Of a DNA stretch of 64,000 nucleotides, positions 8,546 through 43,396 are shown piece after piece; the first letter of the stretch is position 1, and every line of letters starts with the position of its first letter. The notes below the pieces were generated by a model. It saw only the letters and a program-made list of their open reading frames with translations. It was not told the origin of the DNA and did not search any database. Made by a program: the position numbers and the translations under genes. Source of the stretch: Phycisphaerales bacterium (GTDB lineage: Bacteria > Planctomycetota > Phycisphaerae > Phycisphaerales > UBA1924); assembly GCA_040219655.1 (NCBI GenBank), contig JAVJSB010000003.1:141472-205471 (forward strand), read 5' to 3'.

Positions 8546-8581
8546 GCCCGAACCCTACGGCCCGGACGGGCGCCGTGTTGC

Positions 8582-8995
8582 TCAGCCGTCGCCCGGCCGC
8601 CCGCCGCGCCCGCGGCCCTGGCCCTGCTGGCCCTGCTGCGGGCGGTCGTCCGCATCGTCGCGGTCGTCATCCCGCTCGTCCTCGTCCGGGCGGTTGCCGT
8701 CGCGGTCCTGCGCCGGGCGGTCGTCGACGCGGACCGAATCGCGCCCGACGGTCGAGGTTCCCACGTGCCGCAGCTCGCCCGACCCGCGGTCGAACTGCCA
8801 GATGTAGACGGTGCGCCCATCGTCGGACTGTGTGAAGTGCGACTGCCCCTGGAACGCGCCGCGCTGCGGCTGACGGTCCTGCTGCCCGCGCTGTTGGTTG
8901 CCGCGTTGCTGGGGCTGCATCGCGATCATGCCCAGGGCGGTTGTCGCGATCACACCGAGCGCCAGACCCGAGCCGAACGTTTTCGTGGTTGCCAT
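8582..8995 (-). CDS. Hypothetical small secreted/membrane-anchored low-complexity protein
   Basis: N-terminal hydrophobic segment. Contains Q/R/G-rich and D/R-rich tracts. SD aaggag sits ~6 nt upstream of the ATG. Confidence 0.6.
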   Translation of the reverse strand: MATTKTFGSGLALGVIATTALGMIAMQPQQRGNQQRGQQDRQPQRGAFQGQSHFTQSDDGRTVYIWQFDRGSGELRHVGTSTVGRDSVRVDDRPAQDRDGNRPDEDERDDDRDDADDRPQQGQQGQGRGRGGRPGDG

Positions 8996-9085
8996 GTCGT
9001 TGCTCCTTGTGCCGCCCGCGAAGGCGGGCCGGTCGTCCCAGACTACCGGCGGTCCGCAAGAGGTCCATCCCTACCATCGGGGCCC

Positions 9086-10264
9086 ATGCCCGAACCGCCC
9101 TTCAGCCCCATCCCCGAGGTTCTCGACGAGCTCCGCGCCGGGCGCATGGTCGTCGTCACGGACGACGAGCACCGCGAGAACGAGGGCGACCTCATCCTCC
9201 CCGCCCAGTTCATCTCCCCCGATGCGGTCATGTTCATGCTCAAGGAGGCGACGGGCTACATGTTCGTCTCGCTGCCCGAGGCGGACTGCGACCGCCTAAA
9301 CCTCCACGGGCAGACGGCGGTCAACACCTCGGCGCGCGGCACGCCGCTCACCGTGTCCGTGGACGGCGCGCCCAAGCACGGGTTTACCACCGGCGTGAGC
9401 GCGCACGAGCGCGCCAAGACCATCCGGATGCTCATCGACCCGGCGACCGGGCCCGACGACTTCGTGCGCCCTGGGCACATCAACCCGCTGCGCTCGCGCG
9501 ACGGCGGCGTGCTCGTCCGCACCGGGCACACCGAGGGCATCGTCGATCTCTGCCGGCTCGCCGGGCTCAACCCCGGGTGCGTGGGCATCGAGATCGTGCA
9601 CGCCGACGGCTCCATGGCGCGCGTGCCCGAGCTCACCGAGTTCTGCGCGCGGCACGGCCTGAAGATGTGCTCGATCAAACAGATCATCGAGCACCGTCTC
9701 ACACGCTCAAGCATCGTCGAACGCCTCGACCCCGCGTCGGGCACCGAGATCCGCACGCCCGAGGGCGTCTTCAACCTCATCGCGTTCAAGACGGTCGTGG
9801 ACCCGCTGCCGCATCTGGCGCTCACCGTGGGCGGCGTGGGCGACCTCGCGGCGGACGGCGCGCCCGTCGAATCGAGCGAGCCCACCCTCGTCCGCGTGCA
9901 CCGGCGCGACCTGCTGGGCGACATCTTCGGCGACCTCGACGGCCACGCCTCCTCCACCCGCGACACCCTCCGCGCTTCCATGCGGATGATCCAGGACGAA
10001 GGGCGCGGCGCGATCGTCTACCTCCGACCCTCGGGCACGGGCGACGGGCTCTCCAACCGGCTCACCCGCCCCCACGGCTCGTCGGACGAGGACCTGCCCG
10101 GCAGTTCGATCGGGCCCCAGATGCTCGAGTACGGCGTGGGGTCGCAGATCCTCCGCGCCCTCGGGCTCACCAAGCTCCGGCTGATCACGGCCAGCGAGAC
10201 GGCGTACCCGCAGCTCGGCGCGTTCGGGCTGGAGATCGCCCAGCGCGTCCCGCCCGCGCTCTGA
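9086..10264 (+). CDS. ribBA: 3,4-dihydroxy-2-butanone-4-phosphate synthase fused to a GTP cyclohydrolase II-like domain lacking the Zn cysteines
   Basis: N-terminus is MVVVTDDEHRENEGDLI...RTGHTEG (RibB). The C-domain aligns to RibA but reads VHRRDLLGD...DLDGHASS where RibA has VHSECLTGD...CDCG. The true start is an internal ATG at 9086 of the 7187..10264 track ORF. Confidence 0.85.
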   Translation: MPEPPFSPIPEVLDELRAGRMVVVTDDEHRENEGDLILPAQFISPDAVMFMLKEATGYMFVSLPEADCDRLNLHGQTAVNTSARGTPLTVSVDGAPKHGFTTGVSAHERAKTIRMLIDPATGPDDFVRPGHINPLRSRDGGVLVRTGHTEGIVDLCRLAGLNPGCVGIEIVHADGSMARVPELTEFCARHGLKMCSIKQIIEHRLTRSSIVERLDPASGTEIRTPEGVFNLIAFKTVVDPLPHLALTVGGVGDLAADGAPVESSEPTLVRVHRRDLLGDIFGDLDGHASSTRDTLRASMRMIQDEGRGAIVYLRPSGTGDGLSNRLTRPHGSSDEDLPGSSIGPQMLEYGVGSQILRALGLTKLRLITASETAYPQLGAFGLEIAQRVPPAL

Positions 10265-10370
10265 TCCCGCCCCTGAACGATCTCTTCACACGCCCGCGAC
10301 GCCGGGCGGGCCCCCGCGCGATCTAGCGTTGTCGGTTCCCGGTGAATCTGAGACGTTGGAGGATCACGCC

Positions 10371-11378
10371 ATGCTTCGGATGTCGCTGACCGTGTTGCTC
10401 ACCCTGGGGTTCCTGTCCGCGCCGGCGCCCGCGCAGGACGGGCTGATGGAAGAGCGCCCCGACCCCGCCGGCGGGGTCGATCCCGAGCCCGCGCTCGAAT
10501 TGCCCGAGCGCGTCACCCGCGAAGCGCCCGCGGGGCACCCGATCCTGTTCGAGTTCGGCGACATGCTCGAACGCATGCACGACCGGAACGGGCCGGGACG
10601 CCCCGAGGAGCTCATCGCGCGCCTGTCGGGCACCGCGCGGTTCACCAACGAGCTGAGCATCGCGACCGACGCGCACGCGCGCGCGATCACGGGGACCGCG
10701 GTCTGCGAGCCCATCCTCAACGGACGCGGCGTCCGCCTCACGCTCGACGGGCAGGTCGCCATCGGCGCCGCCAACTTCCCGTACGTCAGCGAAGCGCTGA
10801 TCCTCTACGACCACGACGCGGCGGAGTACGTCTGTTATCAGCGTGATTCGCTCGCGGCGCAGATCGTCGAGATGCGCGGCGACATGAACGCCGACGAGTC
10901 CGAGCTCACCCTCACCGCCGCGGGCCAGTCGGGCGACATCGCGCAGGTGATCCTGTTCAGCGAGTCGGGCATCTCGGAGATCCGCAACTACCTCCGCCCG
11001 CTGGGCATGGAGGAATACGCCTTCCGCGGGCTCACGACGTTCGAGCCGATCGAGGAAGCGGCCGAGCCCGAGCGGTTCCTGGTGACCTACGTCCCCGCGT
11101 GGGGCGAGCCCGACGCCGACGGCGTGTACCCCCCGATGCCAGAGTCGAACCGGACCGTCTACGCCAGGCACCTGCGGCACCTGCGTGAGCTGGCGAACAA
11201 CGGGATGCTCGAGCGCTCGGGCGCGGTGGGGTCGGGCGAGCAGATCGTGCTGATGCGGGCCCCGGATGGTGAGGTCGCCCGGGCCGCCGCCGAGCGGAAC
11301 CCGGCGGTCGCCGCGGGCCTGTTCACCGTCCGCGTGCGCCCGTACGAGCCGCTCTACGCGGATCCCGCGGGCGGCTGA
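10371..11378 (+). CDS. Secreted protein: DUF1579-like N-terminal region fused to YciI-like C-terminal domain
   Basis: Signal peptide MLRMSLTVLLTLGFLSAPAPAQ. The C-terminal ...HLRELANNGMLERSGAVG...GEVARAAAERNPAVAAGLFTVRVRPYEP resembles YciI family proteins. Confidence 0.65.
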   Translation: MLRMSLTVLLTLGFLSAPAPAQDGLMEERPDPAGGVDPEPALELPERVTREAPAGHPILFEFGDMLERMHDRNGPGRPEELIARLSGTARFTNELSIATDAHARAITGTAVCEPILNGRGVRLTLDGQVAIGAANFPYVSEALILYDHDAAEYVCYQRDSLAAQIVEMRGDMNADESELTLTAAGQSGDIAQVILFSESGISEIRNYLRPLGMEEYAFRGLTTFEPIEEAAEPERFLVTYVPAWGEPDADGVYPPMPESNRTVYARHLRHLRELANNGMLERSGAVGSGEQIVLMRAPDGEVARAAAERNPAVAAGLFTVRVRPYEPLYADPAGG

Positions 11379-11578
11379 GCGGGCGTTCTCAGAATCAATC
11401 AAAACCCGAACAAATTTGGTCATTTTCCTCGCAATGCCCGAGAAGATCCGTCATACTGGGCGGACCCGGGGCGGGAGCGCCCCGGGCGTGCGGTGCCCAC
11501 GCCGGCGCCGCGAGGGGACACCCACGCCCCCGGGCGCGGAGCGTCGGGGCGCGTGACAACGCCACAAGGAGCACAGCC

Positions 11579-12256
11579 ATGACCACGAAGAAGCTGGCCG
11601 GCGCGTTCGGCGCGGGCGCGATTTGTATGGGAACCCTGACGTTCGTGATCGCCACCGGCGAGCCCGACAAGCCCAAGATGCCCGCGATGGCCGACATGCA
11701 AGACATGCCGCGGATGCAGGACATGCCCGAGATGTCCGCCGCCGAGGCCGAGATGCAGGCCTGGATCGAACTCAGCCAGCCCAACGCGCACCACGAGCAC
11801 CTCGCCAAGTACGTCGGCGCGTGGGACGTGGACGCCTGGTTCAAGATGGACCCCAACGCCCCCGCGATGGAGTCCACCGGCTCCATGACCACCAAGACCC
11901 TCATGGACGGGCGCTACACCATGTCCAGGTTCAACATGCCCGAGTTCATGGGCGGACCGTTCGACGGCATGGCGATCATGGGCTACGACAACGCCAAGCA
12001 GAAGTACGTCTCGACCTGGATCGACTCGTGGAGCACCGGCATCATGGTCAGCGAGGGCGCCATGTCGTCCGACGGCTCGAAGCTCATCATGATGGGCTCC
12101 ATGGCCGGGCCCGAGGGCGACGAGACCATGAAGATGGTCACCGAGTGGCACGGCGACGACACCATCGTCGATACGTTCTACGACCTCACCGACGGCGAGT
12201 GGAACATGCACGCCAAGATGACCTACACCCGCAAGGGGCACGCCCATGGGGGCTGA
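11579..12256 (+). CDS. DUF1579 domain protein
   Basis: HEHLAKYVGAWDVDAWFKMDP...GYDNAKQKYVSTWIDSWSTGIM pattern. SD aaggag upstream. Confidence 0.75.
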   Translation: MTTKKLAGAFGAGAICMGTLTFVIATGEPDKPKMPAMADMQDMPRMQDMPEMSAAEAEMQAWIELSQPNAHHEHLAKYVGAWDVDAWFKMDPNAPAMESTGSMTTKTLMDGRYTMSRFNMPEFMGGPFDGMAIMGYDNAKQKYVSTWIDSWSTGIMVSEGAMSSDGSKLIMMGSMAGPEGDETMKMVTEWHGDDTIVDTFYDLTDGEWNMHAKMTYTRKGHAHGG

Positions 12257-12761
12257 CACCGCCGCCGACTGCATGAAGCACGCCCGGCCCACAGAGCAGC
12301 ACGCGCTGCTCAAGCACTTCGAGGGCACGTGGCGCGCCGAGGTCAAGATGTGGATGGGCCCGGGCGACCCGCACGTCTCCACGGGCACCATGGTCAACGA
12401 GCGCATCCACAACGGGCTGTTCATCCGCCACGATTACAAGGGCGACCCGAGCGACGGGCCCTTCCCCGCCTTCGAGGGCGGCGGGTACTTCGGGTACAAC
12501 ACCGTGGACGGCCGCTGGGAGGGCGTCTGGGTGGACAACGCGATCTCGCTCATCCAGAGCGAGACCGGGCACGTCGATGATTCGGGCAAGGTCTGGACGA
12601 TGCACTCGTCCATGACCGACCCGGGCAGCGGTACGCCCATGACGAAGCGCTCCGTCATCACCATCCACGACGACGGCACGCACTCGATGGAGATGTTCTT
12701 CACGCCCCAGGACTCCAAACAAGAAGTCAAGGGCATGGAGATCCACTACACCCGCGCCTGA
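12246..12761 (+). CDS. DUF1579 domain protein (tandem paralogue)
   Basis: HALLKHFEGTWRAEVKMWMGP...GYNTVDGRWEGVWVDNAISLI. It overlaps the upstream stop; alternative start at 12273. Confidence 0.75.
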   Translation: MGADTAADCMKHARPTEQHALLKHFEGTWRAEVKMWMGPGDPHVSTGTMVNERIHNGLFIRHDYKGDPSDGPFPAFEGGGYFGYNTVDGRWEGVWVDNAISLIQSETGHVDDSGKVWTMHSSMTDPGSGTPMTKRSVITIHDDGTHSMEMFFTPQDSKQEVKGMEIHYTRA

Positions 12762-19385: not shown

Positions 19386-20704
19386 CCCGCTTCATCTCCA
19401 CCGCCATCGCCGCCCTGTCCGTCGCGAACGCCGCGCACGCCCAGGACCTCACGCCCACCGCCCCGCCGCAGGACCACCCGATCTACATCTCCGGCGCCAC
19501 CGTCCACACGGCGACGGGCGACGTCATCGAGAACGGGCTCGTCGGGTTCAGCGAGGGGCGCATCACCATGATCGGCGACGCCGATTTCCTCTCCCGCGCC
19601 TCGCTCACCCAGGACACCGAGGTGATCGACGCGACCGGCATGCACGTCTACCCCGGGCTCATCGCCCCGATGACGCGCCTCGGGCTCACCGAGATCAACG
19701 CCGTCCGCGCCATGCGCGACTACAACGAAGCCGGCTCGTTCACGCCCGAGGTCCGCGCCGCCGTCGCCGTCAACCCCGACTCGACGCTCATCCCCGTCGC
19801 ACGCACGAACGGCATCCTCGTCTTCGGCTCCGCCCCCTCGGGCGGTCGCATCCCCGGGCGCCTGTCCGTCATGCGCTCCGACGGCTGGACCTGGGAGGAC
19901 ATGGCGATCGACGACGGCGCCGGGCTCATCATGAACTGGCCCTCCGTCCGCCCGCGCCACCAGCGTTTCGATTCCGACACCGACGCCGCCAAGCGCATCA
20001 AGGAAGACCTCGCCGAGCTCGACGCCTTCTTCGACGCCGCCGACGCCTACGTCGCCGCCAAGGACGCGAACGCCAACCACCCGACCGACCTCCGCTTCGA
20101 AGCGATGCGCCCGATGCTCGCCGGCGACAAGCCCGTCTTCATCAACGCCAACGACCTTGACCAGATCACGACCGCCGTCGCCTGGTCGCTCGAGCGCGGG
20201 CTGCGCCCCGTCATCGTGGGCGGCCGCGACGCCCTCGGCGCCGCCGAGCTCCTCACACGCCACGACGTCCCCGTCATCCTCCGCGGCACGCACGTCTTCC
20301 CCAAGCGCGACGACTCCCCCTACGACGAACCCTTCACCATGCCCAAGCGCCTCACCGACGCCGGCGTCCGCTGGTGCCTCGACTCCGCCGACCGCGACGG
20401 CAACGTCCGCAACCTCCCCTACGAAGCCGCCCGCGCCGCCGCCTTCGGCCTCGACCCCGACCTCGCCCTCCAGTCCATCACGCGCGCCACCGCCGACATC
20501 CTCGGCATCGCCGACGACTACGGCTCGCTCGAGACCGGCAAGTCCGCCACCCTCTTCGTCACCGACGGCGACTGCCTCGAGATCACCTCGAACGTCCAGA
20601 TGGCCTTCATCGACGGCCGGCGCATCGACATCTCCAACAAGCAGACCGAGCTCCGCGACAAGTACCGCGAGAAGTACCAGCAGCTCGATCTGATCGACGA
20701 CTGA
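19382..20704 (+). CDS. Amidohydrolase-family protein lacking the HxH motif
   Basis: Internal ATG overlaps the upstream stop (ATGA). Signal peptide MTRFISTAIAALSVANAAHA. It reads GMHVYPGLIAPMTRLGL where the metal-binding HxH is expected. Confidence 0.75.
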   Translation: MTRFISTAIAALSVANAAHAQDLTPTAPPQDHPIYISGATVHTATGDVIENGLVGFSEGRITMIGDADFLSRASLTQDTEVIDATGMHVYPGLIAPMTRLGLTEINAVRAMRDYNEAGSFTPEVRAAVAVNPDSTLIPVARTNGILVFGSAPSGGRIPGRLSVMRSDGWTWEDMAIDDGAGLIMNWPSVRPRHQRFDSDTDAAKRIKEDLAELDAFFDAADAYVAAKDANANHPTDLRFEAMRPMLAGDKPVFINANDLDQITTAVAWSLERGLRPVIVGGRDALGAAELLTRHDVPVILRGTHVFPKRDDSPYDEPFTMPKRLTDAGVRWCLDSADRDGNVRNLPYEAARAAAFGLDPDLALQSITRATADILGIADDYGSLETGKSATLFVTDGDCLEITSNVQMAFIDGRRIDISNKQTELRDKYREKYQQLDLIDD

Positions 20705-20708
20705 TCGC

Positions 20709-21263
20709 CTAAGGCCGCAGCTCCGCCTCGTCCCACAGCCGGCGCATCGTCCCATCCGAGCGCGGCGTCTCGAGCTGCGCCGTCAGACGCACGCTGCCCG
20801 CGCCCGGCGCGGGCACGCCGTCCGCGTCCGGCATCATCGCCTCGACCCACCCGGGCACGTCCCCCAGCACGATCCGGTACGTCCGGCTCGACGGGTCGTA
20901 GTACCGCGCGTTGTCCTCGTCGGACCACATCGCAACATCCCACCGCACCTCGTCGCGCCCCTCACCCGACGCCGTCCCCGCCGGGCGCAGCAGCTGCACC
21001 GTCAGCTGCCCGACGCCCTTGACCGTGTCGCCCCACTCGTCCTTCATCTCCAGGTGCAAGACGACGCGCGCGGCGCCGTCGTCGTCGCGGTCCAGCCGCG
21101 TCAGCGGGAAGACGCGGATCGCCACCGGCTCGAACGGCCCGGGCGCCCGCCAACCCGCGCGCACCTCGCGCGCCGGGCGATCGCCCAGCCACGACCCCTG
21201 GTCCGCGCACCCGCTCGCCGCACACACGCACGCCGCCAGCCCGATCGCTCGAAGTCCGGTCAT
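20709..21263 (-). CDS. Hypothetical lipoprotein
   Basis: Lipobox AACVCAASGC near the N-terminus; 184 aa; no recognised domain. Confidence 0.6.
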   Translation of the reverse strand: MTGLRAIGLAACVCAASGCADQGSWLGDRPAREVRAGWRAPGPFEPVAIRVFPLTRLDRDDDGAARVVLHLEMKDEWGDTVKGVGQLTVQLLRPAGTASGEGRDEVRWDVAMWSDEDNARYYDPSSRTYRIVLGDVPGWVEAMMPDADGVPAPGAGSVRLTAQLETPRSDGTMRRLWDEAELRP

Positions 21264-21272
21264 CGGCGCAGT

Positions 21273-21539
21273 CTACGCCGCCTCGTCCGGCGTGCGCAGC
21301 CCGCCCAGCATCGCCATCAGCCCACGCTGGCACGCCTCCAGGCTCGCCAGCGCCCGCGTGTTGTCCCCCAGCGCCGCGATGAGCACGTCCGTCTCCCGCC
21401 GCTCACGCATCAGACGCTCGTGCATCTCGCTCACCTGCCGCTCGCGCACCCCCGCCGCCCGACGCTCGGCGAGCCACATCCAGCACACCAGCCCCGCCAC
21501 CCCGAACTGCGCCAGCGCCGCCAACTCCGCTTCCATCAC
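21273..21539 (-). CDS. Small N-terminally anchored coiled-coil protein
   Basis: 88 aa. One hydrophobic helix FGVAGLVCWMWL is followed by the charged helical region RERQVSEMHERLMRERRETD. GTG/ATG start pair. Confidence 0.5.
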   Translation of the reverse strand: MMEAELAALAQFGVAGLVCWMWLAERRAAGVRERQVSEMHERLMRERRETDVLIAALGDNTRALASLEACQRGLMAMLGGLRTPDEAA

Positions 21540-21540
21540 A

Positions 21541-21592
21541 CCCTCTTCCCCCCTCTCCCCTCCGGGGAGAGGGCCGGGGTGAGGGGTCTTCC
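21541..21592 (+). repeat. Module A hairpin repeat (cctctcccc-n-ggggagagg + gccggggtgagggg)
   Basis: Seven copies in the window, all in the same orientation on the + strand. Confidence 0.85.
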
Positions 21593-21610
21593 ACGCCTCC
21601 CCCTCCTACG

Positions 21611-21659
21611 CCTCAAGCCTCACACCTCAAGCCTCACCGCTCACTGCTCACTGCTCACC
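21611..21659 (-). repeat. 7-nt periodic TGA array (7 units) immediately 3' of a stop codon
   Basis: + strand reads cctcaag cctcaca cctcaag cctcacc gctcact gctcact gctcacc, then the cta stop at 21661. On the coding (-) strand this gives a TGA every 7 nt. Confidence 0.8.
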
Positions 21660-21660
21660 A

Positions 21661-22047
21661 CTACAACGTCACCTTCCGGAACGTCGCCGCGTACCGCACG
21701 CTCCACAGGCGCCCGCGATCGATCGGCCCGAGCTCCTCGTACGAGATCATCGTCATCCCGCTCCAGGTGCGCCCGTCGTTGTCGATCAGATCCCCCTGCT
21801 TCTCCGGCAGCTCCGCCTCCGCCGCGACCGCCTGCCGCAGCGTCCACAGCGCGCTCTCGCTCGCCGCGACGAGCCGACCCGTCACCGACATGATGGGCTC
21901 CTTCGCGCCGATCACCTCGCTGCCCGTGCCGTCGTCGAACGGCTGCTGGAACTGCACCCACCGCGGGATCACCAGCAGCTCCCGCGCCGGCGCCGTCACG
22001 CGGTGCGGGCCCGACCCGAAGATGTCATTGCCCCGAAACGAGCTCAT
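21661..22047 (-). CDS. Hypothetical protein downstream of major capsid gene
   Basis: Start MSSFRGNDIF with SD ggaaggag. The track ORF extends 5' through repeat modules. 128 aa, no recognised family. Confidence 0.6.
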   Translation of the reverse strand: MSSFRGNDIFGSGPHRVTAPARELLVIPRWVQFQQPFDDGTGSEVIGAKEPIMSVTGRLVAASESALWTLRQAVAAEAELPEKQGDLIDNDGRTWSGMTMISYEELGPIDRGRLWSVRYAATFRKVTL

Positions 22048-22057
22048 CTCAAACTCC

Positions 22058-22154
22058 TTCCTCCCCCGTCCAGACGGGGGAGGTGGCCGCGAAGCGGACG
22101 GAGGGGGTCCTCCTCCCTCTCCCCCCCGGGGAGAGGGCCGGGGTGAGGGGCTCC
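22058..22154 (+). repeat. Composite repeat: module B (two hairpins incl. GCGAAGC) + module A
   Basis: ttcctcccccgtccagacgggggaggtggccGCGAAGCggacggagggggtcc followed by tcctccctctcccccccggggagagggccggggtgagggg. Confidence 0.85.
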
Positions 22155-22200
22155 CCCTCCTCCCCCTCCTACGCCATTCGCCGCGACACGCTCGCAGCCC

Positions 22201-22236
22201 AAAAACCCCGGGCGCCGGTCTCCCGCGCACCCGGGG
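22201..22236 (-). terminator. Putative intrinsic terminator after the capsid gene
   Basis: - strand reads ccccgggtgcgc-gggagacc-ggcgcccgggg followed by ttttt, ~45 nt after the 22279 stop. Confidence 0.5.
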
Positions 22237-22278
22237 CGCACCGCCGGGTCCCCCCGAACCCCAGCGGGCATCACCCGA

Positions 22279-23454
22279 TCACACCGCCAGGCCCGAGATC
22301 ACCCCGTGCGCGTTCTCGTTCTTGAACTCCAGCGTGTACTCCCCGATCACCTGCCCCCGCACCGCGTCCCCCGCCGGCGCCAGCGGCTTGAAGTGGAAGC
22401 TCCGCCCCTGCAGCGGCATCACCTGGATCCGGCTCGAATCCAGCAGCATCAGCGTGTCCGACGGCACCCACCGGCTCATCACCACCCGGCACACGCCGAA
22501 GTCGCTCTCATACACGCTGATCAGATCCCGGTACGTCTCGTCCTCGGGCAGGTACGCCCGCGTCCCCGACGCGAACGCGTTGATCCGACGCTTCTGCGCC
22601 CCGCCCACCACGATCGTGTCGATCTGACCCGACGACTGATCCCAGATCTCCTTCATCGCCGCGTTCAGCACCGCCTCGTTCAGCTCGTCACTCCCGGCGC
22701 CGTCCCCGTCCGGGATCGCCCCGGTTCCCGGCTCGAACCGGTTCGAGCTGATGAGCTTCAGAATCCCGTTCATCGATCGCCGGATCGACGACGTCCCCTG
22801 CTGGTCCGATGCCGGCGCCACGCCGTTGATCACGCAGTTCTCCAGATCCCGCAGCAGCTCGCGCATCCGCTCCTGCTTCTGGTAATCGACCTCGTCGTCG
22901 ATCCCGTACGCCCGCGCCGCCTGCATCGAACCCGACACCTCGATCGCCTCCGTCAGGATCTGCGTGTAGTTCTGCTTGCGCACCCGCGACGTGAACCGCG
23001 CCTCGGGTGCCTGCTCGCCCTCCAGCGCCGCGTTCCCGATGATCAACAGCTCCATGTTGTCCGCCAGCGTCGCCGCCGTCGTGCCCCCGTACCCACGCAC
23101 CACCCCGACGATGTCCGTATCCACGTCCGACGCCGTCACCAGCATCACCTCACCCGACTGCCCCGGCCGCACCAGATCACCGACCTGGAACACCGACGCG
23201 TCGTCCACGATGAACCCCGTCGCCGTCGTCGGGCTCGGGCTGAACGAGCTCTGGTTGATCCGCCCCACGTTCGGCAGCAGCGTGTCCTCCACCCACTCGT
23301 GCACCGTGCTCAGCGCCGCGCGCTTCGGATCCCCGATGTGATCCAACAGCGGCGTCTCGTGCGGGCTCACGATCCCGATCACGTCCGACACGTCCTCCAC
23401 CAACTCGGGCAGCCCCGCCCCGCCCGAATACGTCGCCTTCCCCGTAAACGCCAT
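22279..23454 (-). CDS. Phage major capsid protein, HK97-fold, SU10-type (DUF5309-like)
   Basis: N-terminal LVEDVSDVIGIVSPHETPLLDHIG...STVHEWVEDTL, then NAALEGEQAPE...RVRKQNYTQI..VSGS. C-terminal YESDFGV..VVMSRW...LD...PL..AGDA..G.VIGEYTLEFKNENAHGVI matches my memory of this capsid family. SD gaggagga. Confidence 0.8.
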   Translation of the reverse strand: MAFTGKATYSGGAGLPELVEDVSDVIGIVSPHETPLLDHIGDPKRAALSTVHEWVEDTLLPNVGRINQSSFSPSPTTATGFIVDDASVFQVGDLVRPGQSGEVMLVTASDVDTDIVGVVRGYGGTTAATLADNMELLIIGNAALEGEQAPEARFTSRVRKQNYTQILTEAIEVSGSMQAARAYGIDDEVDYQKQERMRELLRDLENCVINGVAPASDQQGTSSIRRSMNGILKLISSNRFEPGTGAIPDGDGAGSDELNEAVLNAAMKEIWDQSSGQIDTIVVGGAQKRRINAFASGTRAYLPEDETYRDLISVYESDFGVCRVVMSRWVPSDTLMLLDSSRIQVMPLQGRSFHFKPLAPAGDAVRGQVIGEYTLEFKNENAHGVISGLAV

Positions 23455-23476
23455 CCCGCATCCTCCTCGTTCGTCT

Positions 23477-23615
23477 TCCTCCCTCTCCCCCCCGGGAGAG
23501 GGCCGGGGTCAGGGGCCTTCCCCCCTTCCCCTCGTCAGTCCGAGCCGCGAGCGCAAGCCCGCGGACATCCCCGCATCCATCCGAGCCGCGGGCGTGAGCA
23601 CGCGGACCAGATTCC
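23477..23615 (+). repeat. Composite repeat: module A + module C
   Basis: ttcctccctctcccccccgggagagggccggggtcagggg ... gtccgagccgcgagcgcaagcccgcggac ... catccgagccgcgggcgtgagcacgcggaccagattcc. Confidence 0.8.
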
Positions 23616-23641
23616 CCATGCCTCACACCCGAGGCCTCCGG

Positions 23642-24172
23642 TCAGCTCGCACGCCCCCGCCGCTCACGCAAGTACGCCAGCAACGCCCCCCGGTCACCGC
23701 TCGACCGCGCCTCATCGGCCAGCTCACCCAGCTCCGCTCGCGCGCCGCGTCCGCGCTCCACCGCCACGCTCATCGCCCCAGCCGCCGCGCGTTGACGCGA
23801 TCCGCCCCGGAACAAGAACGGCTTGTCCCGACGCAGCTCCTCGATCGCCGCCCGCACGTCCGGCTCCTCCATCGCGCTCACCGCGATCTCCGTCAGCAGC
23901 GCCACCGTCGCCGCGTCCAGCGCATTCGCCTCGTGCGCCGCGCGCTCAATCTCGTGCCGACGCTCCGACGACCCCAACGCCTCCAACGCCGCCGCCAGCT
24001 CGCCCTCAAGCTCCACGATCCGCGCCTCCAGCTCTGCGATCCGCGCCTCGAAGTCCTCCTCCTCGCGCTCTTCGCGCAGCGCGTCCGCCCGCACGTCCAG
24101 CTCATCCACCATCGTCTCCACGACCGGCGGCTCAATCTCGCCCTCACCGGGCCCGTTGCCGACACCCTTCAT
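23642..24172 (-). CDS. Putative capsid scaffolding protein (acidic coiled coil)
   Basis: Start MKGVGNG with SD ggggagga. It has an E/A/R-rich heptad-like helix (EEDFEARIAELEARIVELEGELAAALEAL) and sits between the portal and capsid genes. Confidence 0.6.
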   Translation of the reverse strand: MKGVGNGPGEGEIEPPVVETMVDELDVRADALREEREEEDFEARIAELEARIVELEGELAAALEALGSSERRHEIERAAHEANALDAATVALLTEIAVSAMEEPDVRAAIEELRRDKPFLFRGGSRQRAAAGAMSVAVERGRGARAELGELADEARSSGDRGALLAYLRERRGRAS

Positions 24173-24188
24173 CGCTCGTTCCTCCCCG

Positions 24189-25706
24189 TCACACCACGCC
24201 CGGATCGCCGGACCCGTACCCCAGTTCCGCCAGCAAACGCTCGTCCCCGACGCCCAACTCGCGCTTCGATTCCGCCGCCGACAGGTCCTCCGCCGGCACG
24301 CTCGGCAACGCGTCCGGCCACGCCACACGCAGCCCGCGCTCCCGCTCGCCCGTCATCAGCACGCCCGCCCCCGCCAACGCGTCCAGCACCAACCCCGACG
24401 CCTCGACGATCCCGCGCCCGTACGTCACACGCTTCCGCGCCGTCTTCGCAAGCAAACTCAGCAGCGTGATCCGCAGCGCGTTCGCGCTCGTCAGATTCCC
24501 GACCTTCGCCCGCACCACGCCGCCCGCCAACGGCGGCACCGCGCTCGCCTTGTCCATCGCCTCGCGGATCTGCTCGATGTGCGATTCCTCGCTCGGGCTC
24601 GCCCCGTCACCCCCGAACGACTCGATCGACGCGTCCGGGTTGTTCGTGCTCCACACGCTCCCCGGCGTCACCGGCACCCGATCAAACCCATCGAGCCCCT
24701 TCGCCAGGTACATCCGAAAGCTCTGCATCGTCACCCGGCTCGCGCGATCGCTCAGCCGCGTGTTCAGCTCGTCCTGCAGCGGGATCAACGCCTCAACCTC
24801 GCTCAGCCCCGAGTACCGGAACGGCTGACTCCCGTTCTGCACGTGCACCACCGGCACAACATCCGGCAACAACGAACTCGCACGCTCCGCAACAACTTCG
24901 CCGTCCTCCACCCGGCGCCAACGCCCGGGTTCGAACACCTCCGTCACCGTCCCACGTTTCCGCTGCAACCTCGAAGACGCTCGCCCGTTCGCCCGCTCGC
25001 GCCCGAACAGCCGCTTCGCCCGCCCCGCCCGGTCCGTCCGCTCCACCTCGTTGAGCTCACGCTCGAAGTGCACCAGGTACCCGTCGAGCCGCCGGTAGTC
25101 CCCCGCGCTCAAGATCGGGACGCCCCGCGTCGCCTCGATCGGCTCGATCCGGATCGCGTGCGCCGCGACCACCGCCGGGTCCTCGCCCGCCAGCTCCGCG
25201 AGCGCCCCCTCATCGACCCGCACCGCGAGATCAACGTGCCCGTACACATGCCCGAGCAGCGCCACGTCCTGCAGCAGCGCGAGCCCCCCGCTCGCCTCCC
25301 ACACCGCGTCGAGCACCCGCTCCACGTCCGCCGCGAGCCCCGCGTCCGACGCCTCCGACGCGATCCGCACCGGCCGCCCGAACAGGAAGTCCACCATCGT
25401 CAGCACGCGCCACGCGATGTCGTTCTCGATCACCACCTCGCGCCGCGTCCGGGCGCGATCGTCCAGACTGAACGCGTCCTCGCCCAACCCCGAAGACCGC
25501 CCCGTCACCCGCGCCGGCAGCCCCGCCTCCTGCGCCAGGCGCCACCCCCTCGACGAACCCCCCTCCGCGCCGACCGGCTCGGCCGGATTCCGGAAGTACC
25601 GCCACAACTCCTCGAGCCGCGGCGCCACCGCCTTCTCGTGCTCTTCGATCGCGACGCGAATCAACGCGTCATCGAGCCCACGTTCCGTTCCGAGCCGGTC
25701 GGGCAT
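24189..25706 (-). CDS. Phage portal protein (SPP1 gp6-like)
   Basis: LEELWRYFRN, ENDIAWRVLTMVDFLFGRPV, VPVVHVQN....YSGLSEVEALIPLQDELNTRLSDRA and LTSANALRITLLSLLAKT follow the portal-family pattern as I remember it. SD ggagggg lies before the ATG at 25706. Confidence 0.75.
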   Translation of the reverse strand: MPDRLGTERGLDDALIRVAIEEHEKAVAPRLEELWRYFRNPAEPVGAEGGSSRGWRLAQEAGLPARVTGRSSGLGEDAFSLDDRARTRREVVIENDIAWRVLTMVDFLFGRPVRIASEASDAGLAADVERVLDAVWEASGGLALLQDVALLGHVYGHVDLAVRVDEGALAELAGEDPAVVAAHAIRIEPIEATRGVPILSAGDYRRLDGYLVHFERELNEVERTDRAGRAKRLFGRERANGRASSRLQRKRGTVTEVFEPGRWRRVEDGEVVAERASSLLPDVVPVVHVQNGSQPFRYSGLSEVEALIPLQDELNTRLSDRASRVTMQSFRMYLAKGLDGFDRVPVTPGSVWSTNNPDASIESFGGDGASPSEESHIEQIREAMDKASAVPPLAGGVVRAKVGNLTSANALRITLLSLLAKTARKRVTYGRGIVEASGLVLDALAGAGVLMTGERERGLRVAWPDALPSVPAEDLSAAESKRELGVGDERLLAELGYGSGDPGVV

Positions 25707-25952
25707 CGGGTCCCCTCCACCACGCACCGCCGGGAATGCCCCCGGTCACAAGATCCGTCGAGCGAGCCACACGCCCGCCGCACACCCCTCCCCCACGCGC
25801 CCTGCCACGCGCGCACAACCACCGCGCTGCGCACGCACGAACGCGCGCAACCCCTTGCCAACACCGGCGCAGAAATTCCCCCAAAAACACAACCGCGGCC
25901 CCGGTCACCCGACGCCGCGTGCGCTCAAAGTCAGATGTCCACGATCACGCGC

Positions 25953-26213
25953 TCAGGCCTCAGCCGCCTCCACGCGCTCCACCCTCGAGTTCTGATCCAG
26001 GTTCACCGTGATCAGCTCGCCGTCGTCCTTGCGAAGCTCCACCCGGTCGATCCACAGCTTCTTGTCCTTGCTGTGCGCAAACCACGACCCCGTCTTCTGC
26101 TGACCCGCACGCACCACCGCGCCCTCGACGACCGTGCTCGTCGCCTCGCGGCCCGTCACCACGTGCTGCGTCACCCGCACCCGCGCCCCGGCTTCAAACT
26201 CAAGCTCATGCAT
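25953..26213 (-). CDS. Hypothetical small protein upstream of portal gene
   Basis: 86-aa ORF, beta-rich by eye, no recognised family. Confidence 0.5.
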   Translation of the reverse strand: MHELEFEAGARVRVTQHVVTGREATSTVVEGAVVRAGQQKTGSWFAHSKDKKLWIDRVELRKDDGELITVNLDQNSRVERVEAAEA

Positions 26214-26233
26214 GCCGACATCCTAGCTCGATC

Positions 26234-26286
26234 ACCCTCCCCCGCGTGCGGGGGAGGTGCCCGCGAAGCGGGCGGAGGGGGGTCCT
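26234..26286 (+). repeat. Module B repeat (two hairpins incl. GCGAAGC)
   Basis: accctcccccgcgtgcgggggaggtgcccGCGAAGCgggcggagggggg. Confidence 0.8.
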
Positions 26287-26294
26287 CTCAGATT

Positions 26295-26348
26295 CCTCAA
26301 GCCTCAGGTCTCAGATCTCAGGTCTCAGGACTCAGGACTCAGGACTCA
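26295..26348 (-). repeat. 7-nt periodic TGA array (8 units) spanning the stop codon of the phosphohexomutase gene
   Basis: TCA on the + strand at 26297, 26304, 26311, 26318, 26325, 26332, 26339 (the annotated stop) and 26346, with exact 7-nt spacing. Confidence 0.85.
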
Positions 26349-27994
26349 TTCACAATCCCCGCCACCTCATCCAGCAGCGCCCCCGCCGCCGTCTCGTCCG
26401 CCGCCTCCCCGATCAGCCTCAAAATCGGCTCGGTGTTGCTCGCCCGCACATGCACCCAGCTGCCCGCCCGCTCGCCCGCGTCGAAGTCCACCCGCACCCC
26501 GTCCTGGGTATCGACCCGCTCCCCGGCGTACCGATCCGCGATCCGCCGCACCGCCGGCTCGGCGTCCGGCTTGCTCGCCAGCGCCTGCTTGCGCTTCACG
26601 ATCGCATACCCGCCCCCGCGCGCATACCCGTTGATCTTCGAGACGATCTCCGACACCGTCTTCCCCTCGCGCGCCATCAGCCCGAGCGTCAGCGCCATCG
26701 CGCCCAGCGAGTCGCGCACGTACGTCACCTCGGGCCAGATCACCCCGCCGTTGCCCTCGCCGCCGAGCACGCAGTGCTCGCCCGCCGCCTTGAGCGCCTT
26801 CATCCGCTCGACGACGTTCGCCTCGCCGACCGCCGTCCGTTCGACCCGCGCCCCGTACGCCGCCGCCACGTCCTCGATCATGCGGCTCGTGGACAAGTTT
26901 GTCACCAGCACCGGCTGCCGTCCCGCGCGGGCTGAAGCCCGCGGCTCAGATTCCTCCCTCTCCCGCCCGGCGTGAGGGTCTCCTCTTCCCCCCTCTCCCC
27001 TCGGGGGAGAGGGCCGGGGTGAGGGGTCTTCCCCTCCTACCAGTTCTCCGTTCACCTGCATCGCCCCGAGGATCGCCTCCGCCGCGATCGCGAGCGTGTA
27101 CTCCTCCCCGATGTACCGTCCCCGCTCATCCACGATCGCCAGCCGATCACCGTCCGGGTCCTGCGCAAACCCGACGTCGGCCTTCAACCCCGGCACCGCG
27201 TCGCACAGCCCACCGGCGCCCGACAGATTCTCCGCCGTCGGCTCGGGGATGTGCGGGAAGATGCCCGACAACCCACCCGCAATCGCGATCATCTGGACCG
27301 GCGTGTCATCAAAGAAGCAATCGTCAATGTTGACGCCGGACGCGTTGACCGCATCAACGACGACCGTGCGAACCCCGCCGTCGACCATGTCCCAGTAGTT
27401 GGAAACATCGAACACGCGCTCCGCAGCGTTCAGTGTGCGCAAGCAGTGCGTGTCCTCGACATCATCGTCAACGCTCGAACTCTCCACGTGATGCTGGGGA
27501 GCCCACGAACACCGCCCCGCGTGGAACGCGTCGATGATCTCCTGCGCCGTCTCCGCGTCGGGCGCGCACGCATCACTGACACCATCCGCACCACCACGCG
27601 CGTCGCTGTCACCCAATTCCCACGCGCGCCGATTGAGGAGGATCTTTATTCCGTTCCATTCCTGCGGGTTGTGACTCGCCGTAATGATGAGGCACGCATC
27701 TCCTTGCCGTGAGTCCGTTACGACCCCGGCGCTCGGCGTCATCGCGATCCCGAGCCGGCGCACCCGGCATCCCGTCGCCAACAACGCCGAGATCACCGCC
27801 GTGTAAACGGCTTCACCACCCGCCCGACCATCTCGGGCGACCATGACCAACGGCTCCCGCTGGCCCGCAATCTGATCTTCGAGCCAAGCCCCAAACGCCG
27901 CCGCGTACCGCACCGCCACCTCCGGCGTCAGGCTCTCGCCCACGATCCCCCGCAGCCCGCTCACACCCAGAATCAACGGCGCATCACCCATCAC
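26339..27994 (-). CDS. alpha-D-phosphohexomutase family enzyme (GlmM/ManB-like) carrying a repeat-derived in-frame insertion
   Basis: All four family motifs are present: ITASHNP, DPDGDR, GGEGNGG and RASNTEP. A 37-codon segment, EDPSPRPSPPRGEGGRGDPHAGREREESEPRASARAG, is encoded by repeat modules C+A. Confidence 0.85.
   Translation of the reverse strand: MMGDAPLILGVSGLRGIVGESLTPEVAVRYAAAFGAWLEDQIAGQREPLVMVARDGRAGGEAVYTAVISALLATGCRVRRLGIAMTPSAGVVTDSRQGDACLIITASHNPQEWNGIKILLNRRAWELGDSDARGGADGVSDACAPDAETAQEIIDAFHAGRCSWAPQHHVESSSVDDDVEDTHCLRTLNAAERVFDVSNYWDMVDGGVRTVVVDAVNASGVNIDDCFFDDTPVQMIAIAGGLSGIFPHIPEPTAENLSGAGGLCDAVPGLKADVGFAQDPDGDRLAIVDERGRYIGEEYTLAIAAEAILGAMQVNGELVGGEDPSPRPSPPRGEGGRGDPHAGREREESEPRASARAGRQPVLVTNLSTSRMIEDVAAAYGARVERTAVGEANVVERMKALKAAGEHCVLGGEGNGGVIWPEVTYVRDSLGAMALTLGLMAREGKTVSEIVSKINGYARGGGYAIVKRKQALASKPDAEPAVRRIADRYAGERVDTQDGVRVDFDAGERAGSWVHVRASNTEPILRLIGEAADETAAGALLDEVAGIVNES
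26924..27034 (+). repeat. Composite repeat (module C fragment + degenerate A + module A) inside a CDS
   Basis: cgcgcgggctgaagcccgcggctcagattcctccctctcccgcccggcgtgagggtctcctcttcccccctctcccctcgggggagagggccggggtgaggggtcttcc. Length is 111 nt = 37 codons with no stop in the gene frame. Confidence 0.85.
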
Positions 27995-42683: not shown

Positions 42684-42755
42684 GGGTGCCACGGGTTGGC
42701 CCGAAGGGCAACCCGTGCGCACAACAACACGGCTTGCAAGACAAGCCGCGGCGTC
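42684..42755. repeat. GTGC-capped single hairpin (cacgggttgGccc-GAA-gggcaacccgtg) plus second small hairpin
   Basis: Starts 2 nt after the GT9 stop. The second stem, cggcttg-caaga-caagccg, lies at ~42730..42748. Confidence 0.7.

Positions 42756-43323: not shown

Positions 43324-43396
<73 letters not shown>

What the first reader, a model, noticed from the sequence alone, without database searches (positions are those of the whole stretch)
20709..26213. Orphan phage-head module (portal, scaffold, major capsid) with no terminase, tail or integrase, embedded among housekeeping genes
Seven co-oriented genes on the minus strand form the core of a tailed-phage head-assembly cassette. In order they encode an 86-aa protein, an SPP1-like portal, an acidic coiled-coil scaffold candidate, an SU10/HK97-type major capsid protein, a 128-aa protein, a TM/coiled-coil protein and a lipoprotein.

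Everything else a prophage, GTA or PICI would need is absent from the window. I see no terminase (small or large), maturation protease, head-tail adaptors, tail, integrase, repressor or lysis enzyme. The flanks are an alpha-D-phosphohexomutase on one side and an amidohydrolase operon on the other.

The ORFs are intact, have good SD sequences, and the capsid gene is followed by a hairpin-T5 terminator. Host-type intergenic repeat modules have colonised every spacer, which suggests long residence.

Candidate explanations are:
- a domesticated capsid (a portal-bearing nanocompartment or packaging particle)
- a satellite that hijacks a helper
- a very cleanly trimmed prophage relic
Basis: partly seen in the sequence, partly recalled or inferred. 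Interest (0 to 1): 0.75.

Follow-up and report, generated by a model that had tools for sequence, protein, structure and literature searches.

The report
Domesticated phage head-neck operon of Phycisphaerales
A small set of virus-shell genes (portal, scaffold, capsid, neck parts) with no DNA-packaging motor, tail or integrase sits at the same chromosomal spot in at least 80 related planctomycete species and is kept intact by selection, so it looks like a captured virus head that the bacteria now use themselves; this particular genome has lost two of the genes.

Summary
Portal (24189-25706), scaffold (23642-24172) and SU10-type major capsid protein (22279-23454) are real. I found no terminase, tail, integrase or lysis enzyme anywhere in the 64 kb.

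The decisive evidence is comparative. The same cassette, between the same housekeeping genes, occurs in at least 80 Phycisphaerales species genomes. The capsid protein is the most conserved protein in the neighbourhood (median 73% identity, against 51-63% for housekeeping genes). dN/dS is 0.12-0.30. This excludes a decaying relic or a mobile satellite and supports ancient domestication.

- Relatives carry nine genes, not seven. Two genes (about 213 and 134 aa) between capsid and the 128-aa gene are missing here, at a junction made of a repeat element.
- The 128-aa protein has a phage tail-tube fold, so the module is head plus neck.
- A paired palindromic operator (TTGTGCGCAC twice, 110-115 nt apart) precedes the portal gene in about 50 species.

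The 86-aa gene is probably a neighbour, not a member. What the particle does, and whether a terminase is encoded elsewhere, remains open. I found no description in the searched literature.

The parts
25953..26213 (-). 86-aa conserved small protein (p86). It is a neighbour of the cassette and probably not a member.
   Evidence: Median identity is 61% in 58 loci. A terminator-like hairpin and the operator region separate it from the portal. In L028, L058, L060, L072 and L074 unrelated genes lie between them, and in L067 it is inverted. It has no family or PDB match.
25889..25908 (-). Terminator-like hairpin plus T-run downstream of p86.
   Evidence: It is the only site found in 20600-26400, and the shuffles give a similar count, so it is weak evidence on its own.
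25919..25928 (-). Distal copy of the conserved operator. It reads TTGAGCGCAC here; the consensus is TTGTGCGCAC, with palindromic core GTGCGCAC.
25809..25818 (-). Proximal copy of the operator (TTGTGCGCGC), 110 nt from the distal copy and about 100 nt upstream of the portal ATG.
   Evidence: The pair, spaced 110-115 nt, lies upstream of the portal in about 50 of 70 loci. There are 104 hits in 31.5 kb of upstream sequence, against 34 in the other 1.3 Mb.
24189..25706 (-). Portal protein, 505 aa, SPP1 gp6-like.
   Evidence: Pfam PF05133 5e-9, above the cut-off; PHROG 104 and 64. Median identity is 56% in 77 loci. The start codon and SD (GGAGGGG) are fixed by alignment.
23642..24172 (-). Scaffolding protein, 176 aa. 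It is an acidic coiled coil with a basic C-terminus.
   Evidence: PF06810 2.7e-6, below the cut-off. It sits between portal and capsid as in related phages. It is conserved in 71 loci, with median identity 44%.
23473..23531 (.). Copy of the 59-nt host intergenic repeat (D1) in the scaffold-capsid spacer.
22279..23454 (-). Major capsid protein, 391 aa, SU10/DUF5309 family (HK97-type by family membership).
   Evidence: PF17236 1e-87; PHROG 1328. PDB relatives are listed. Identity is 67-92% and length 389-392 aa in more than 120 clusters and 80 species loci. dN/dS is 0.13.
22200..22269 (-). Two stem-loops directly after the capsid stop codon. The second is followed by UUUUU, giving a terminator or attenuator.
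   Evidence: z -2.6; the same architecture appears in L084, L002 and L005 with changed stems. In 79 loci the first 100 nt after the stop have median z -3.0, and 31 have a hairpin of at least 8 bp plus a T-rich tail.
22048..22278 (.). Deletion junction. This 231-bp spacer stands where relatives carry two genes (about 213 aa and about 134 aa). It holds repeat D1 (22107-22165) and repeat B (22056-22107).
   Evidence: tblastn finds neither gene anywhere in the window. Both are present in 77 and 73 of 80 loci, and in L084 and L206. In L002 repeat B lies directly upstream of both the 213-aa gene and the 128-aa gene. The window's copy is a hybrid of the two.
21661..22047 (-). 128-aa protein with a phage tail-tube fold (neck or tube-ring candidate).
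   Evidence: AlphaFold2 pLDDT is 92.9. All 50 best Foldseek PDB matches but one (MexA, rank 40) are tail-tube-fold or other tail, neck and baseplate proteins of phages, RcGTA, AFP/PVC and a phage-tail-like bacteriocin (monocin). E ranges from 2e-3 to 7.5e-2 and TM from 0.29 to 0.58. The 292 homologues found are either unnamed or named as Phycisphaerae/Planctomycetota MAGs.
21543..21601 (.). Copy of repeat D1 in the p128-tm88 spacer.
21273..21536 (-). 87-aa membrane protein: an N-terminal TM helix followed by a charged coiled coil, with inferred N-out/C-in topology.
   Evidence: Invariant residues are G13, A15, G16, W22, E25, R26, R27 and R32. The profile gives only coiled-coil matches. It abuts the 128-aa gene in L084. 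It is present in 66 loci, with median identity 55%.
20709..21263 (-). 184-aa lipoprotein.
   Evidence: A signal peptide plus Cys is conserved in essentially all 62 orthologues. It has no family or PDB match. dN/dS is 0.14.

Best explanation
This is an anciently domesticated, vertically inherited remnant of a tailed phage's morphogenesis module. It has been kept as a host operon in Phycisphaerales.

**Canonical form: nine genes, six of them core**
- portal
- scaffold
- SU10-type capsid protein
- a 213-aa protein (helical bundle plus beta-barrel, with a DxDxDG loop)
- a 134-aa beta protein
- a 128-aa tail-tube-fold protein

In most lineages a small membrane-anchored coiled-coil protein and a lipoprotein follow.

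**Mechanism I think most likely**
1. A host transcription factor releases a promoter bracketed by two palindromic operators.
2. Portal, scaffold and capsid protein assemble a portal-bearing shell. A terminator-like hairpin after the capsid gene keeps capsid output above that of the downstream genes.
3. The three small proteins stack on the portal as a short neck or stub.
4. The result is a tail-less, phage-like particle that serves the host.
5. It most likely carries DNA loaded by a terminase encoded elsewhere, which is gene-transfer-agent logic.
6. The membrane protein and lipoprotein act in envelope docking or release.

**What is shown and what is inferred**
- Shown: gene identities, fold of the 128-aa protein, synteny, purifying selection, the operator pair, the hairpin.
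- Inferred: particle assembly, neck stacking, DNA content, the role of the envelope proteins.

**This window's copy**
It has lost the 213- and 134-aa genes at a junction between two copies of a roughly 55-nt repeat, so it may be impaired or altered.
For: - **Identities:**
- **Distribution:** 373 GTDB species genomes encode a relative. The 80 best loci are all titled as Phycisphaerae or Planctomycetota MAGs, apart from two 'uncultured bacterium' records and one mislabelled as Cyanobacteria. Most show the same order: Ppk, QueD, phosphohexomutase, p86, cassette, two amidohydrolases.
- **Conservation:** median identity is 73% for capsid and 56% for portal, against 63% for Ppk, 51% for phosphohexomutase and 53% for amidohydrolase.
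- **Selection:** window versus L084 gives dN/dS of 0.13 (capsid), 0.16 (portal), 0.12 (tm88), 0.14 (lipoprotein), 0.30 (p128) and 0.29 (scaffold), at dS 0.3-0.66. Housekeeping genes give 0.06-0.39.
- **No close phage relative:** cultured phages reach at most 32% identity, and IMG/VR holds none close.
- **Gene order:** related phages have TerL-portal-(minor capsid)-scaffold-capsid-small neck genes-tail. The cassette is exactly the middle of that module.
- **p128:** tail-tube fold.
- **p210 (the 213-aa protein):** confident model. One domain resembles the N-terminal parts of phage tail fibres and tailspikes.
- **Coupling:** the 134-aa, 128-aa and membrane-protein genes overlap or abut in L084.
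- **Regulation:** an operator pair specific to the portal upstream region. It is also found in front of a portal only 31% identical.
- **RNA structure:** conserved structured RNA after the capsid gene.
Against: - No terminase was found within 10 kb of the cassette in about 85 genomes, nor in the 64-kb window. Without one, DNA packaging is impossible, and I could not search whole genomes.
- There is no tail, baseplate, fibre or endolysin, so DNA delivery and release have no visible machinery.
- The 213-aa, 134-aa, membrane and lipoprotein genes have no recognisable family. The neck assignment rests on gene position and one fold match of modest E-value.
- No expression or particle data exist.
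- The window's own copy lacks two core genes.
Confidence: 0.45

Rival explanations
1. DNA-free protein shell. The operon builds a portal-bearing capsid that is never filled with DNA. It would serve as a compartment, store or structural body (encapsulin-like logic). The portal and neck would be retained only as the assembly nucleus and pore plug.
For: No terminase lies in or near the cassette in about 85 genomes. The evolutionary pattern is that of a core cellular component. The scaffold is retained.
Against: No enzyme or cargo gene with a targeting peptide is visible in the operon. In phages, neck proteins act after DNA packaging. Their order-wide conservation, and that of the portal, is hard to explain for an empty shell. 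Known encapsulins have neither portal nor scaffold.
Confidence: 0.25
2. Immobile anti-phage decoy. The host makes capsids with necks that capture the terminase, DNA or tails of an infecting phage and so abort its cycle. This is what capsid-forming satellites do, but without any transfer of the element itself.
For: A head plus neck without tail or terminase is the gene set of an element that borrows the rest. A phage-like contig of similar G+C carries the same operator pair.
Against: There are no PADLOC matches. Defence genes are typically patchy, fast-evolving and horizontally moved, whereas this cassette is syntenic, near-universal in the clade and slowly evolving.
Confidence: 0.1
3. Phage satellite (PICI or cf-PICI-like) that is mobilised by a helper phage.
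For: Capsid-forming islands also carry portal, capsid and connector genes and lack tails. This rests on my own knowledge of cf-PICIs.
Against: The window has no integrase, att site, replication or small-terminase gene, and its only tRNA is 17 kb away. The cassette has the same flanking host genes in most of the 80 species and evolves at the host's rate.
Confidence: 0.03
4. Inert, decaying prophage remnant.
For: The origin is certainly a tailed phage. This genome has lost two genes, and repeats have invaded the spacers.
Against: ORFs are intact in about 85 genomes. dN/dS is 0.12-0.30 at dS 0.3-0.66. The capsid protein is more conserved than polyphosphate kinase. Lineage-specific substitutions are equal in the window and its sister: 44 versus 44 in the cassette, 52 versus 52 in housekeeping genes. 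The cis-regulatory elements are conserved.
Confidence: 0.03

Closest known systems
Gene transfer agents (RcGTA of Rhodobacter capsulatus and relatives)
   Same: Both are phage-derived structural genes fixed in the host chromosome. Both are inherited vertically across an order-level clade under purifying selection, lack integrase and replication genes, and appear to be under host-type regulation. The 128-aa protein's fold matches include RcGTA neck and virion chains (6toa_G, 6tba_50).
   Different: By established knowledge, RcGTA-type clusters include small and large terminase, a protease, a complete tail and head spikes, or have these in known extra loci. Here the cluster starts at the portal. 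It has no terminase, and only one tube-fold protein stands in for a tail. The capsid is of the SU10 family with a scaffold and no protease.
Encapsulins (HK97-fold nanocompartments)
   Same: A phage-type capsid protein kept by a cell for its own use, without terminase or tail.
   Different: Encapsulins have no portal, scaffold or neck genes. They are defined by cargo enzymes with targeting peptides, and none is seen here.
Capsid-forming phage-inducible chromosomal islands (cf-PICIs)
   Same: They encode their own portal, capsid and head-tail connectors but no tail.
   Different: cf-PICIs are mobile: they carry an integrase, replication genes and their own terminase subunits, and their distribution is patchy. 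This cassette is immobile and syntenic.
Head modules of tailed phages with SU10-type capsid protein (e.g. Sporosarcina phage Lietuvens, Clostridium phage CB452P1, Escherichia phage SU10)
   Same: The same protein families and the same order: portal, scaffold, capsid, small neck proteins.
   Different: Capsid identity is at most 32%. The phages have TerL directly upstream of the portal, and tails and lysis genes downstream.
Tailocins, eCIS and T6SS (domesticated phage tails)
   Same: One half of a virion is domesticated and the other half discarded.
   Different: They are the mirror image. Those systems keep the tail and lose the head. This one keeps head and neck and loses the tail.

Membership tests
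Tailed-phage head module (origin) | Major capsid protein of a recognised phage family | tested here: met
   PF17236 SU10_MCP, 295 bits against a cut-off of 24. PHROG 1328. PDB relatives 9ny2, 9in6 and 7z45.
Tailed-phage head module (origin) | Portal protein | tested here: met
   PF05133, 36 bits against a cut-off of 25.5; PHROG 104 and 64. phmmer finds no PDB relative.
Tailed-phage head module (origin) | Scaffold or protease between portal and capsid | tested here: inconclusive
   PF06810 gives 27.9 bits, below the cut-off of 35 (E 2.7e-6). Position, acidity and coiled coil all fit.
Gene transfer agent | Phage-like structural cluster fixed in the chromosome, vertically inherited, under purifying selection | tested here: met
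Gene transfer agent | Terminase that packages host DNA | tested here: not met
   None is found in the cassette, in the 64-kb window, or within 10 kb in about 85 genomes. Whole genomes could not be searched.
Gene transfer agent | Tail for delivery to a recipient | tested here: not met
   There is only one tail-tube-fold protein. There is no tape measure, baseplate or fibre gene.
Gene transfer agent | Particles that transfer random host DNA | not testable with these tools
   This needs culture, particle purification and DNA sequencing.
Encapsulin | Shell protein alone, with no portal or scaffold, plus cargo carrying a targeting peptide | tested here: not met
   Portal and scaffold are present. 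No enzyme gene lies in the operon.
PICI / cf-PICI satellite | Integrase, att sites, replication module, own terminase subunit; mobile and patchy distribution | tested here: not met
   No such genes are present. The cassette keeps a fixed syntenic position.
Cryptic prophage remnant | Neutral decay: frameshifts, dN/dS near 1, strain-variable presence | tested here: not met
   ORFs are intact in about 85 genomes and dN/dS is 0.12-0.30. The one exception is the two-gene deletion in this window.
Known anti-phage defence systems | Match to a PADLOC model | tested here: not met
   There are no meaningful matches. The only hits are weak LmuB/JetC matches to the scaffold's coiled coil.

The most novel reading that the evidence does not exclude
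Phycisphaerales keep a 'head-only' domesticated virus organelle. It would be a portal-bearing capsid with a short neck, anchored or released through its own membrane protein and lipoprotein, and switched on by a dedicated operator pair. It would work without any terminase or tail.

That would make it the missing mirror image of tailocins and T6SS, and a kind of phage domestication not described before. It would be neither a GTA nor an encapsulin.
Probability: 0.3. Interest if true: 0.9.

Novelty: new variant of a known kind. Interest (0 to 1): 0.8.

Why it matters
Cells are known to have captured phage tails (tailocins, T6SS, contractile injection systems), bare capsid proteins (encapsulins) and whole small virions (gene transfer agents). 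A head-plus-neck module with a portal, but no motor and no tail in its neighbourhood, fits none of these. Its retention across an order-level clade, under selection as strong as on housekeeping genes, therefore needs explaining.

Either outcome is of interest:
- A new gene transfer agent lineage in Planctomycetota, with an unusually split genetic architecture. That would bear on horizontal gene flow in an abundant marine and soil clade.
- A new use for a viral capsid.

The finding comes with ready handles for experiments:
- a defined six-gene core
- a conserved operator for finding the regulator and the rest of the regulon
- a natural two-gene deletion variant

Tried and rejected
**Family and sequence searches with no usable match**
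- Pfam, PHROGs, NCBIfam, PADLOC and PDB sequence profiles for the 213-, 134-, 128-, 87-, 184- and 86-aa proteins.
- Profile-profile comparison of the 134-aa and 128-aa families: unrelated.
- HMMs of the three small families against all ORFs of the two closest phages and of L205: nothing.
- TerL of the two closest phages against 1.52 Mb of cassette neighbourhoods: nothing at E <= 1.

**Structure searches**
- Foldseek of the 213-aa model against PDB: best E 0.35.
- Against BFVD: only one domain matches, resembling tail-fibre and tailspike N-termini. This is suggestive, not decisive.

**RNA structure**
- RNAalifold on a MAFFT alignment of the post-capsid spacer gave no consensus because the alignment was too gappy. 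I replaced it with per-sequence folding.

**Collection scans**
- The metagenome scan for the operator pair was meant to find other members of the regulon. Only L133, L146 and L134 were relevant.
- The IMG/VR search with the capsid protein found no close relative.

**Other leads**
- I checked whether a 213-aa homologue 86% identical to L084's belonged to this genome on another contig. It belongs to a different MAG that has a complete cassette.
- I considered p86 as the regulator or a small terminase. Nothing supports either.
- I considered tm88 plus the lipoprotein as a two-component spanin. The charge distribution puts the coiled coil in the cytoplasm, which does not fit an i-spanin.
- Literature searches for DUF5309, Phycisphaerales or Phycisphaera with capsid or portal, and GTA in Planctomycetota found no description.

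Full report
**What is in the window**

The window is about 70% G+C. Its capsid protein is identical to one from a 294-kb Phycisphaerales MAG contig.

On the minus strand between 20709 and 26213 lie seven co-oriented ORFs. Three are clearly phage head genes:
- Portal, 24189-25706: Pfam SPP1_portal at 36 bits, above the 25.5 cut-off; PHROG 104 at 6e-13.
- Capsid protein, 22279-23454: SU10_MCP at 295 bits; PHROG 1328 at 2e-78. Solved relatives are 9ny2, 9in6 and phage SU10 7z45.
- Scaffold, 23642-24172: an acidic coiled coil between portal and capsid. Phage_scaffold gives E 2.7e-6, below Pfam's cut-off.

The other four ORFs (86, 128, 87 and 184 aa) match no family in Pfam, PHROGs, NCBIfam or PADLOC.

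The rest of the window is housekeeping. It holds M3 peptidase, CCA/poly(A) polymerase, PFK, two amidohydrolases, phosphohexomutase, QueD/PTPS, polyphosphate kinase, arginine biosynthesis genes, AstB, NhaA and others. There is no terminase, tail, integrase or lysis enzyme, and the ORFs without a Pfam hit have no PHROG hit of note. The only tRNA is 17 kb away.

**The comparative picture**

The capsid protein has more than 120 database clusters at 72-92% identity. All are 389-392 aa (one 400), and many sit on megabase-size chromosomal contigs. A scan of one genome per GTDB species found 373 genomes with a relative. The 80 best loci (67-86% identity) are almost all titled Phycisphaerales, Phycisphaeraceae, Phycisphaerae or Planctomycetota.

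In most of these loci the whole neighbourhood is collinear with the window: polyphosphate kinase, QueD, phosphohexomutase, p86, the cassette, then the two amidohydrolases.

Median identity to the window:

| Protein | Median identity |
|---|---|
| Capsid | 73% |
| Polyphosphate kinase | 63% |
| p86 | 61% |
| Portal | 56% |
| Membrane protein (tm88) | 55% |
| QueD | 55% |
| Amidohydrolase | 53% |
| Phosphohexomutase | 51% |
| Scaffold | 44% |
| 128-aa protein | 43% |
| Lipoprotein | 40% |

The capsid protein is thus the best-conserved protein in the region.

Against the closest relative, L084 (92% capsid identity), dS is 0.26-0.66 across the genes compared. The cassette's dN/dS is 0.12-0.30, within the housekeeping range of 0.06-0.39.

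The nearest cultured phages reach only 32% capsid identity, and IMG/VR holds no close relative. In those phages the order is TerL, portal, (minor capsid), scaffold, capsid, several small neck genes, tail. The cassette corresponds exactly to the middle of that module.

Together this excludes a neutral relic and a mobile satellite. It shows ancient domestication with vertical descent.

**Two genes are missing here**

In 77 of 80 loci, and in L084 and L206, two further genes lie between the capsid gene and the 128-aa gene. One encodes about 213 aa and the other about 134 aa. The window has no trace of either anywhere in its 64 kb. In their place is a 231-bp spacer made of repeat elements.

In L002 the same ~55-nt element sits directly upstream of both the 213-aa gene and the 128-aa gene. 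The window's single copy has the left half of the first and the right end of the second. The simplest reading is recombination between two repeat copies. An assembly collapse cannot be excluded.

A relative-rate test with L002 as outgroup shows no acceleration in the window's lineage. The cassette has 44 window-specific and 44 L084-specific changes. Housekeeping genes have 52 and 52. So the loss is recent, or artefactual, or tolerated.

The canonical element has nine genes. A subclade (L039, L041, L045) carries only portal, scaffold, capsid and the 213-, 134- and 128-aa genes, in a different genomic context. That defines a six-gene core.

**The small proteins**

*128-aa protein.* AlphaFold2 on an alignment of 64 homologues gave a confident model (pLDDT 92.9). 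Foldseek against the PDB returned 49 phage-type proteins among the top 50; the exception is MexA at rank 40. They are mostly tail-tube-fold proteins: tail tubes, tube initiators, Dit and hub N-domains, RcGTA neck and virion chains, and AFP/PVC tube and cap proteins. E ranges from 2e-3 to 7.5e-2 and TM from 0.29 to 0.58. The fold class is clear. The exact role (ring, terminator or short tube) is not.

*213-aa protein.* The model is also confident (pLDDT 92.8). It shows a helical bundle, an inserted beta-barrel, and a C-terminal hairpin with an invariant DxDxDG loop.
- It has no PDB fold match.
- In BFVD one domain of 80-95 residues matches the N-terminal parts of tail fibres and tailspikes.
- An exhaustive profile search finds 730 clusters at 50% identity. 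The best 150 are nearly all about 200-220 aa and stand-alone, plus one fusion with the 134-aa protein.

*134-aa protein.* It remains unassigned.

*Position and coupling.* By position these three proteins stand where phages encode adaptor, stopper and tail-joining proteins. The 134-aa, 128-aa and membrane-protein genes overlap or abut in L084.

*Membrane protein.* It has an invariant G-x-A-G...W..ERR motif, and its positive charges follow the helix. This suggests an N-out/C-in topology with a cytoplasmic coiled coil.

*Lipoprotein.* The signal peptide and Cys are conserved throughout.

**Regulation**

Aligning the spacer upstream of the portal revealed two copies of TTGTGCGCAC (core palindrome GTGCGCAC) flanking a T-rich stretch.
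- Across 70 loci the motif occurs 104 times in the 450 nt upstream of the portal, against 34 times in the other 1.3 Mb.
- Pairs spaced 110-115 nt are found upstream of the portal in about 50 loci, and essentially nowhere else.
- In the window the copies are at 25919-25928 and 25809-25818.
- A metagenomic fragment (L134) has a perfect 20-bp palindrome, ACGTTTGTGCGCACAAACGT, twice and 111 nt apart, directly before a portal only 31% identical. The operator may therefore be older than the clade sampled here.

After the capsid stop codon, two stem-loops occur, the second followed by a U-run, with different stem sequences in different species. In 79 loci the first 100 nt fold with a median z of -3.0, and 31 have a hairpin of at least 8 bp plus a T-rich tail. 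This fits a conserved attenuator that keeps capsid output high.

p86 is followed by a terminator-like hairpin. In several species unrelated genes separate it from the portal. I therefore treat it as a neighbour.

**What it most likely does**

*Shown:* a host-regulated operon under purifying selection that encodes everything needed to nucleate and build a portal-bearing shell, plus three portal-proximal small proteins.

*Inferred:* particles are made, the small proteins form a neck, and the envelope proteins dock or release the particle.

The main unknown is the cargo. In phages, neck proteins act only after DNA has been packaged. Their conservation, and that of the portal, leans towards a DNA-carrying particle loaded by a terminase encoded elsewhere (GTA-like). 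I put this at about 0.45.

However, no terminase is visible within 10 kb in about 85 genomes, and I could not search whole genomes. The alternatives are:
- a DNA-free shell (about 0.25);
- an immobile anti-phage decoy (about 0.1);
- a satellite or an inert relic, both effectively excluded.

**Comparison and novelty**

The element shares its evolutionary mode with GTAs. It fails two of their defining features locally: terminase and tail. Like encapsulins it is a captured capsid, but it keeps a portal and scaffold and has no cargo. Its gene set resembles that of cf-PICIs, but it is immobile. It is the mirror image of tailocins.

Searches of the held literature found no description. I file it as a new variant of a known kind, namely domesticated phage structural modules. 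There is a real chance (about 0.3) that it is a new kind altogether.

**Caveats**
- All relatives are MAGs.
- Taxon labels are those of the records.
- The functional steps are inference.
- The two-gene loss in this window needs read-level confirmation.

Noticed in passing
window 26950-27080 (inside the phosphohexomutase gene 26339-27994, minus strand): A copy of the host intergenic repeat (CCCTCTCCCC..GGGGAGAGGG, 26989-27013) lies in frame inside the phosphohexomutase ORF. Together with flanking sequence it adds about 33 residues (…GEDPSPRPSPPRGEGGRGDPHAGREREESEPRASARAGRQ…) relative to the L084 orthologue. The ORF is not broken.
   Followed up: partly
window 16000-50000: There is a long domain of strong negative GC skew (-0.2 to -0.33), regardless of gene orientation. 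Skew is near zero before about 16 kb and weak after about 50 kb. This may be a replication-related asymmetry. It is not specific to the cassette.
   Followed up: no
L134 720-880 and 882-1835: A 1.8-kb metagenome contig (G+C 0.62) carries two perfect 20-bp palindromes, ACGTTTGTGCGCACAAACGT, 111 nt apart. They lie directly upstream of a portal only 31% identical to the window's. That portal has one in-frame stop at about codon 61, which could mean a pseudogene, an error or recoding.
   Followed up: partly
L205 13052-13176 (IMGVR_UViG_3300029224_000031): A viral contig (G+C 0.64) with tail genes carries the same operator pair (TTGTGCGCACAA twice, 113 nt apart). The pair sits about 400 nt upstream of a gene for an excisionase-type HTH fused to a response-regulator receiver domain. 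An 87% identical homologue lies 7 kb from the cassette in L035, without the operator. This is a possible lead to the regulator or to a phage using the same switch.
   Followed up: partly
L208 1-1710 (IMGVR_UViG_3300031673_016560): In an organism of 46% G+C, the first ~150 residues of a cassette-type portal (MGFELNIF…QAQEYGLPARITG…EVVIENDIAWR) are followed immediately by an oppositely oriented integrase-like gene. It looks as if a mobile element had inserted into the portal gene. This suggests the portal lineage extends beyond high-G+C Phycisphaerales.
   Followed up: partly
window 42715-42724, 43436-43447 and 44579-44588: Exact copies of the operator decamer occur outside the cassette. One (TTGTGCGCACAC, palindromic) is 39 nt after tRNA-Ala (43324-43397) and upstream of a 129-aa ORF (42784-43170, minus strand). 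Window-wide, the motif is not more frequent than chance.
   Followed up: no
L039, L041, L045 (about 7800-12700 in each): A subclade carries only the six core genes, in a different genomic context. An aminotransferase-like gene lies upstream and a prepilin-type protein downstream, and p86, the membrane protein and the lipoprotein are absent. L041 is deposited as 'Cyanobacteria bacterium CYA', which is probably a mis-binned contig.
   Followed up: partly
P0363 (369 aa, from the representative library): This single protein joins the 213-aa and 134-aa families head to tail through a short linker (…RFVPRLNHIALAKHQESPMLVLNP…). It is either a natural fusion or a lost stop codon. It hints that the two proteins work together.
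   Followed up: no
window 21611-21662, 26295-26332, 23527-23607: There are further short repeat families in the spacers. One is CCTCAAGCCTCA…-type repeats after the 128-aa gene and between p86 and the phosphohexomutase gene. Another is a tandem pair of about 40 nt upstream of the capsid gene.
   Followed up: no
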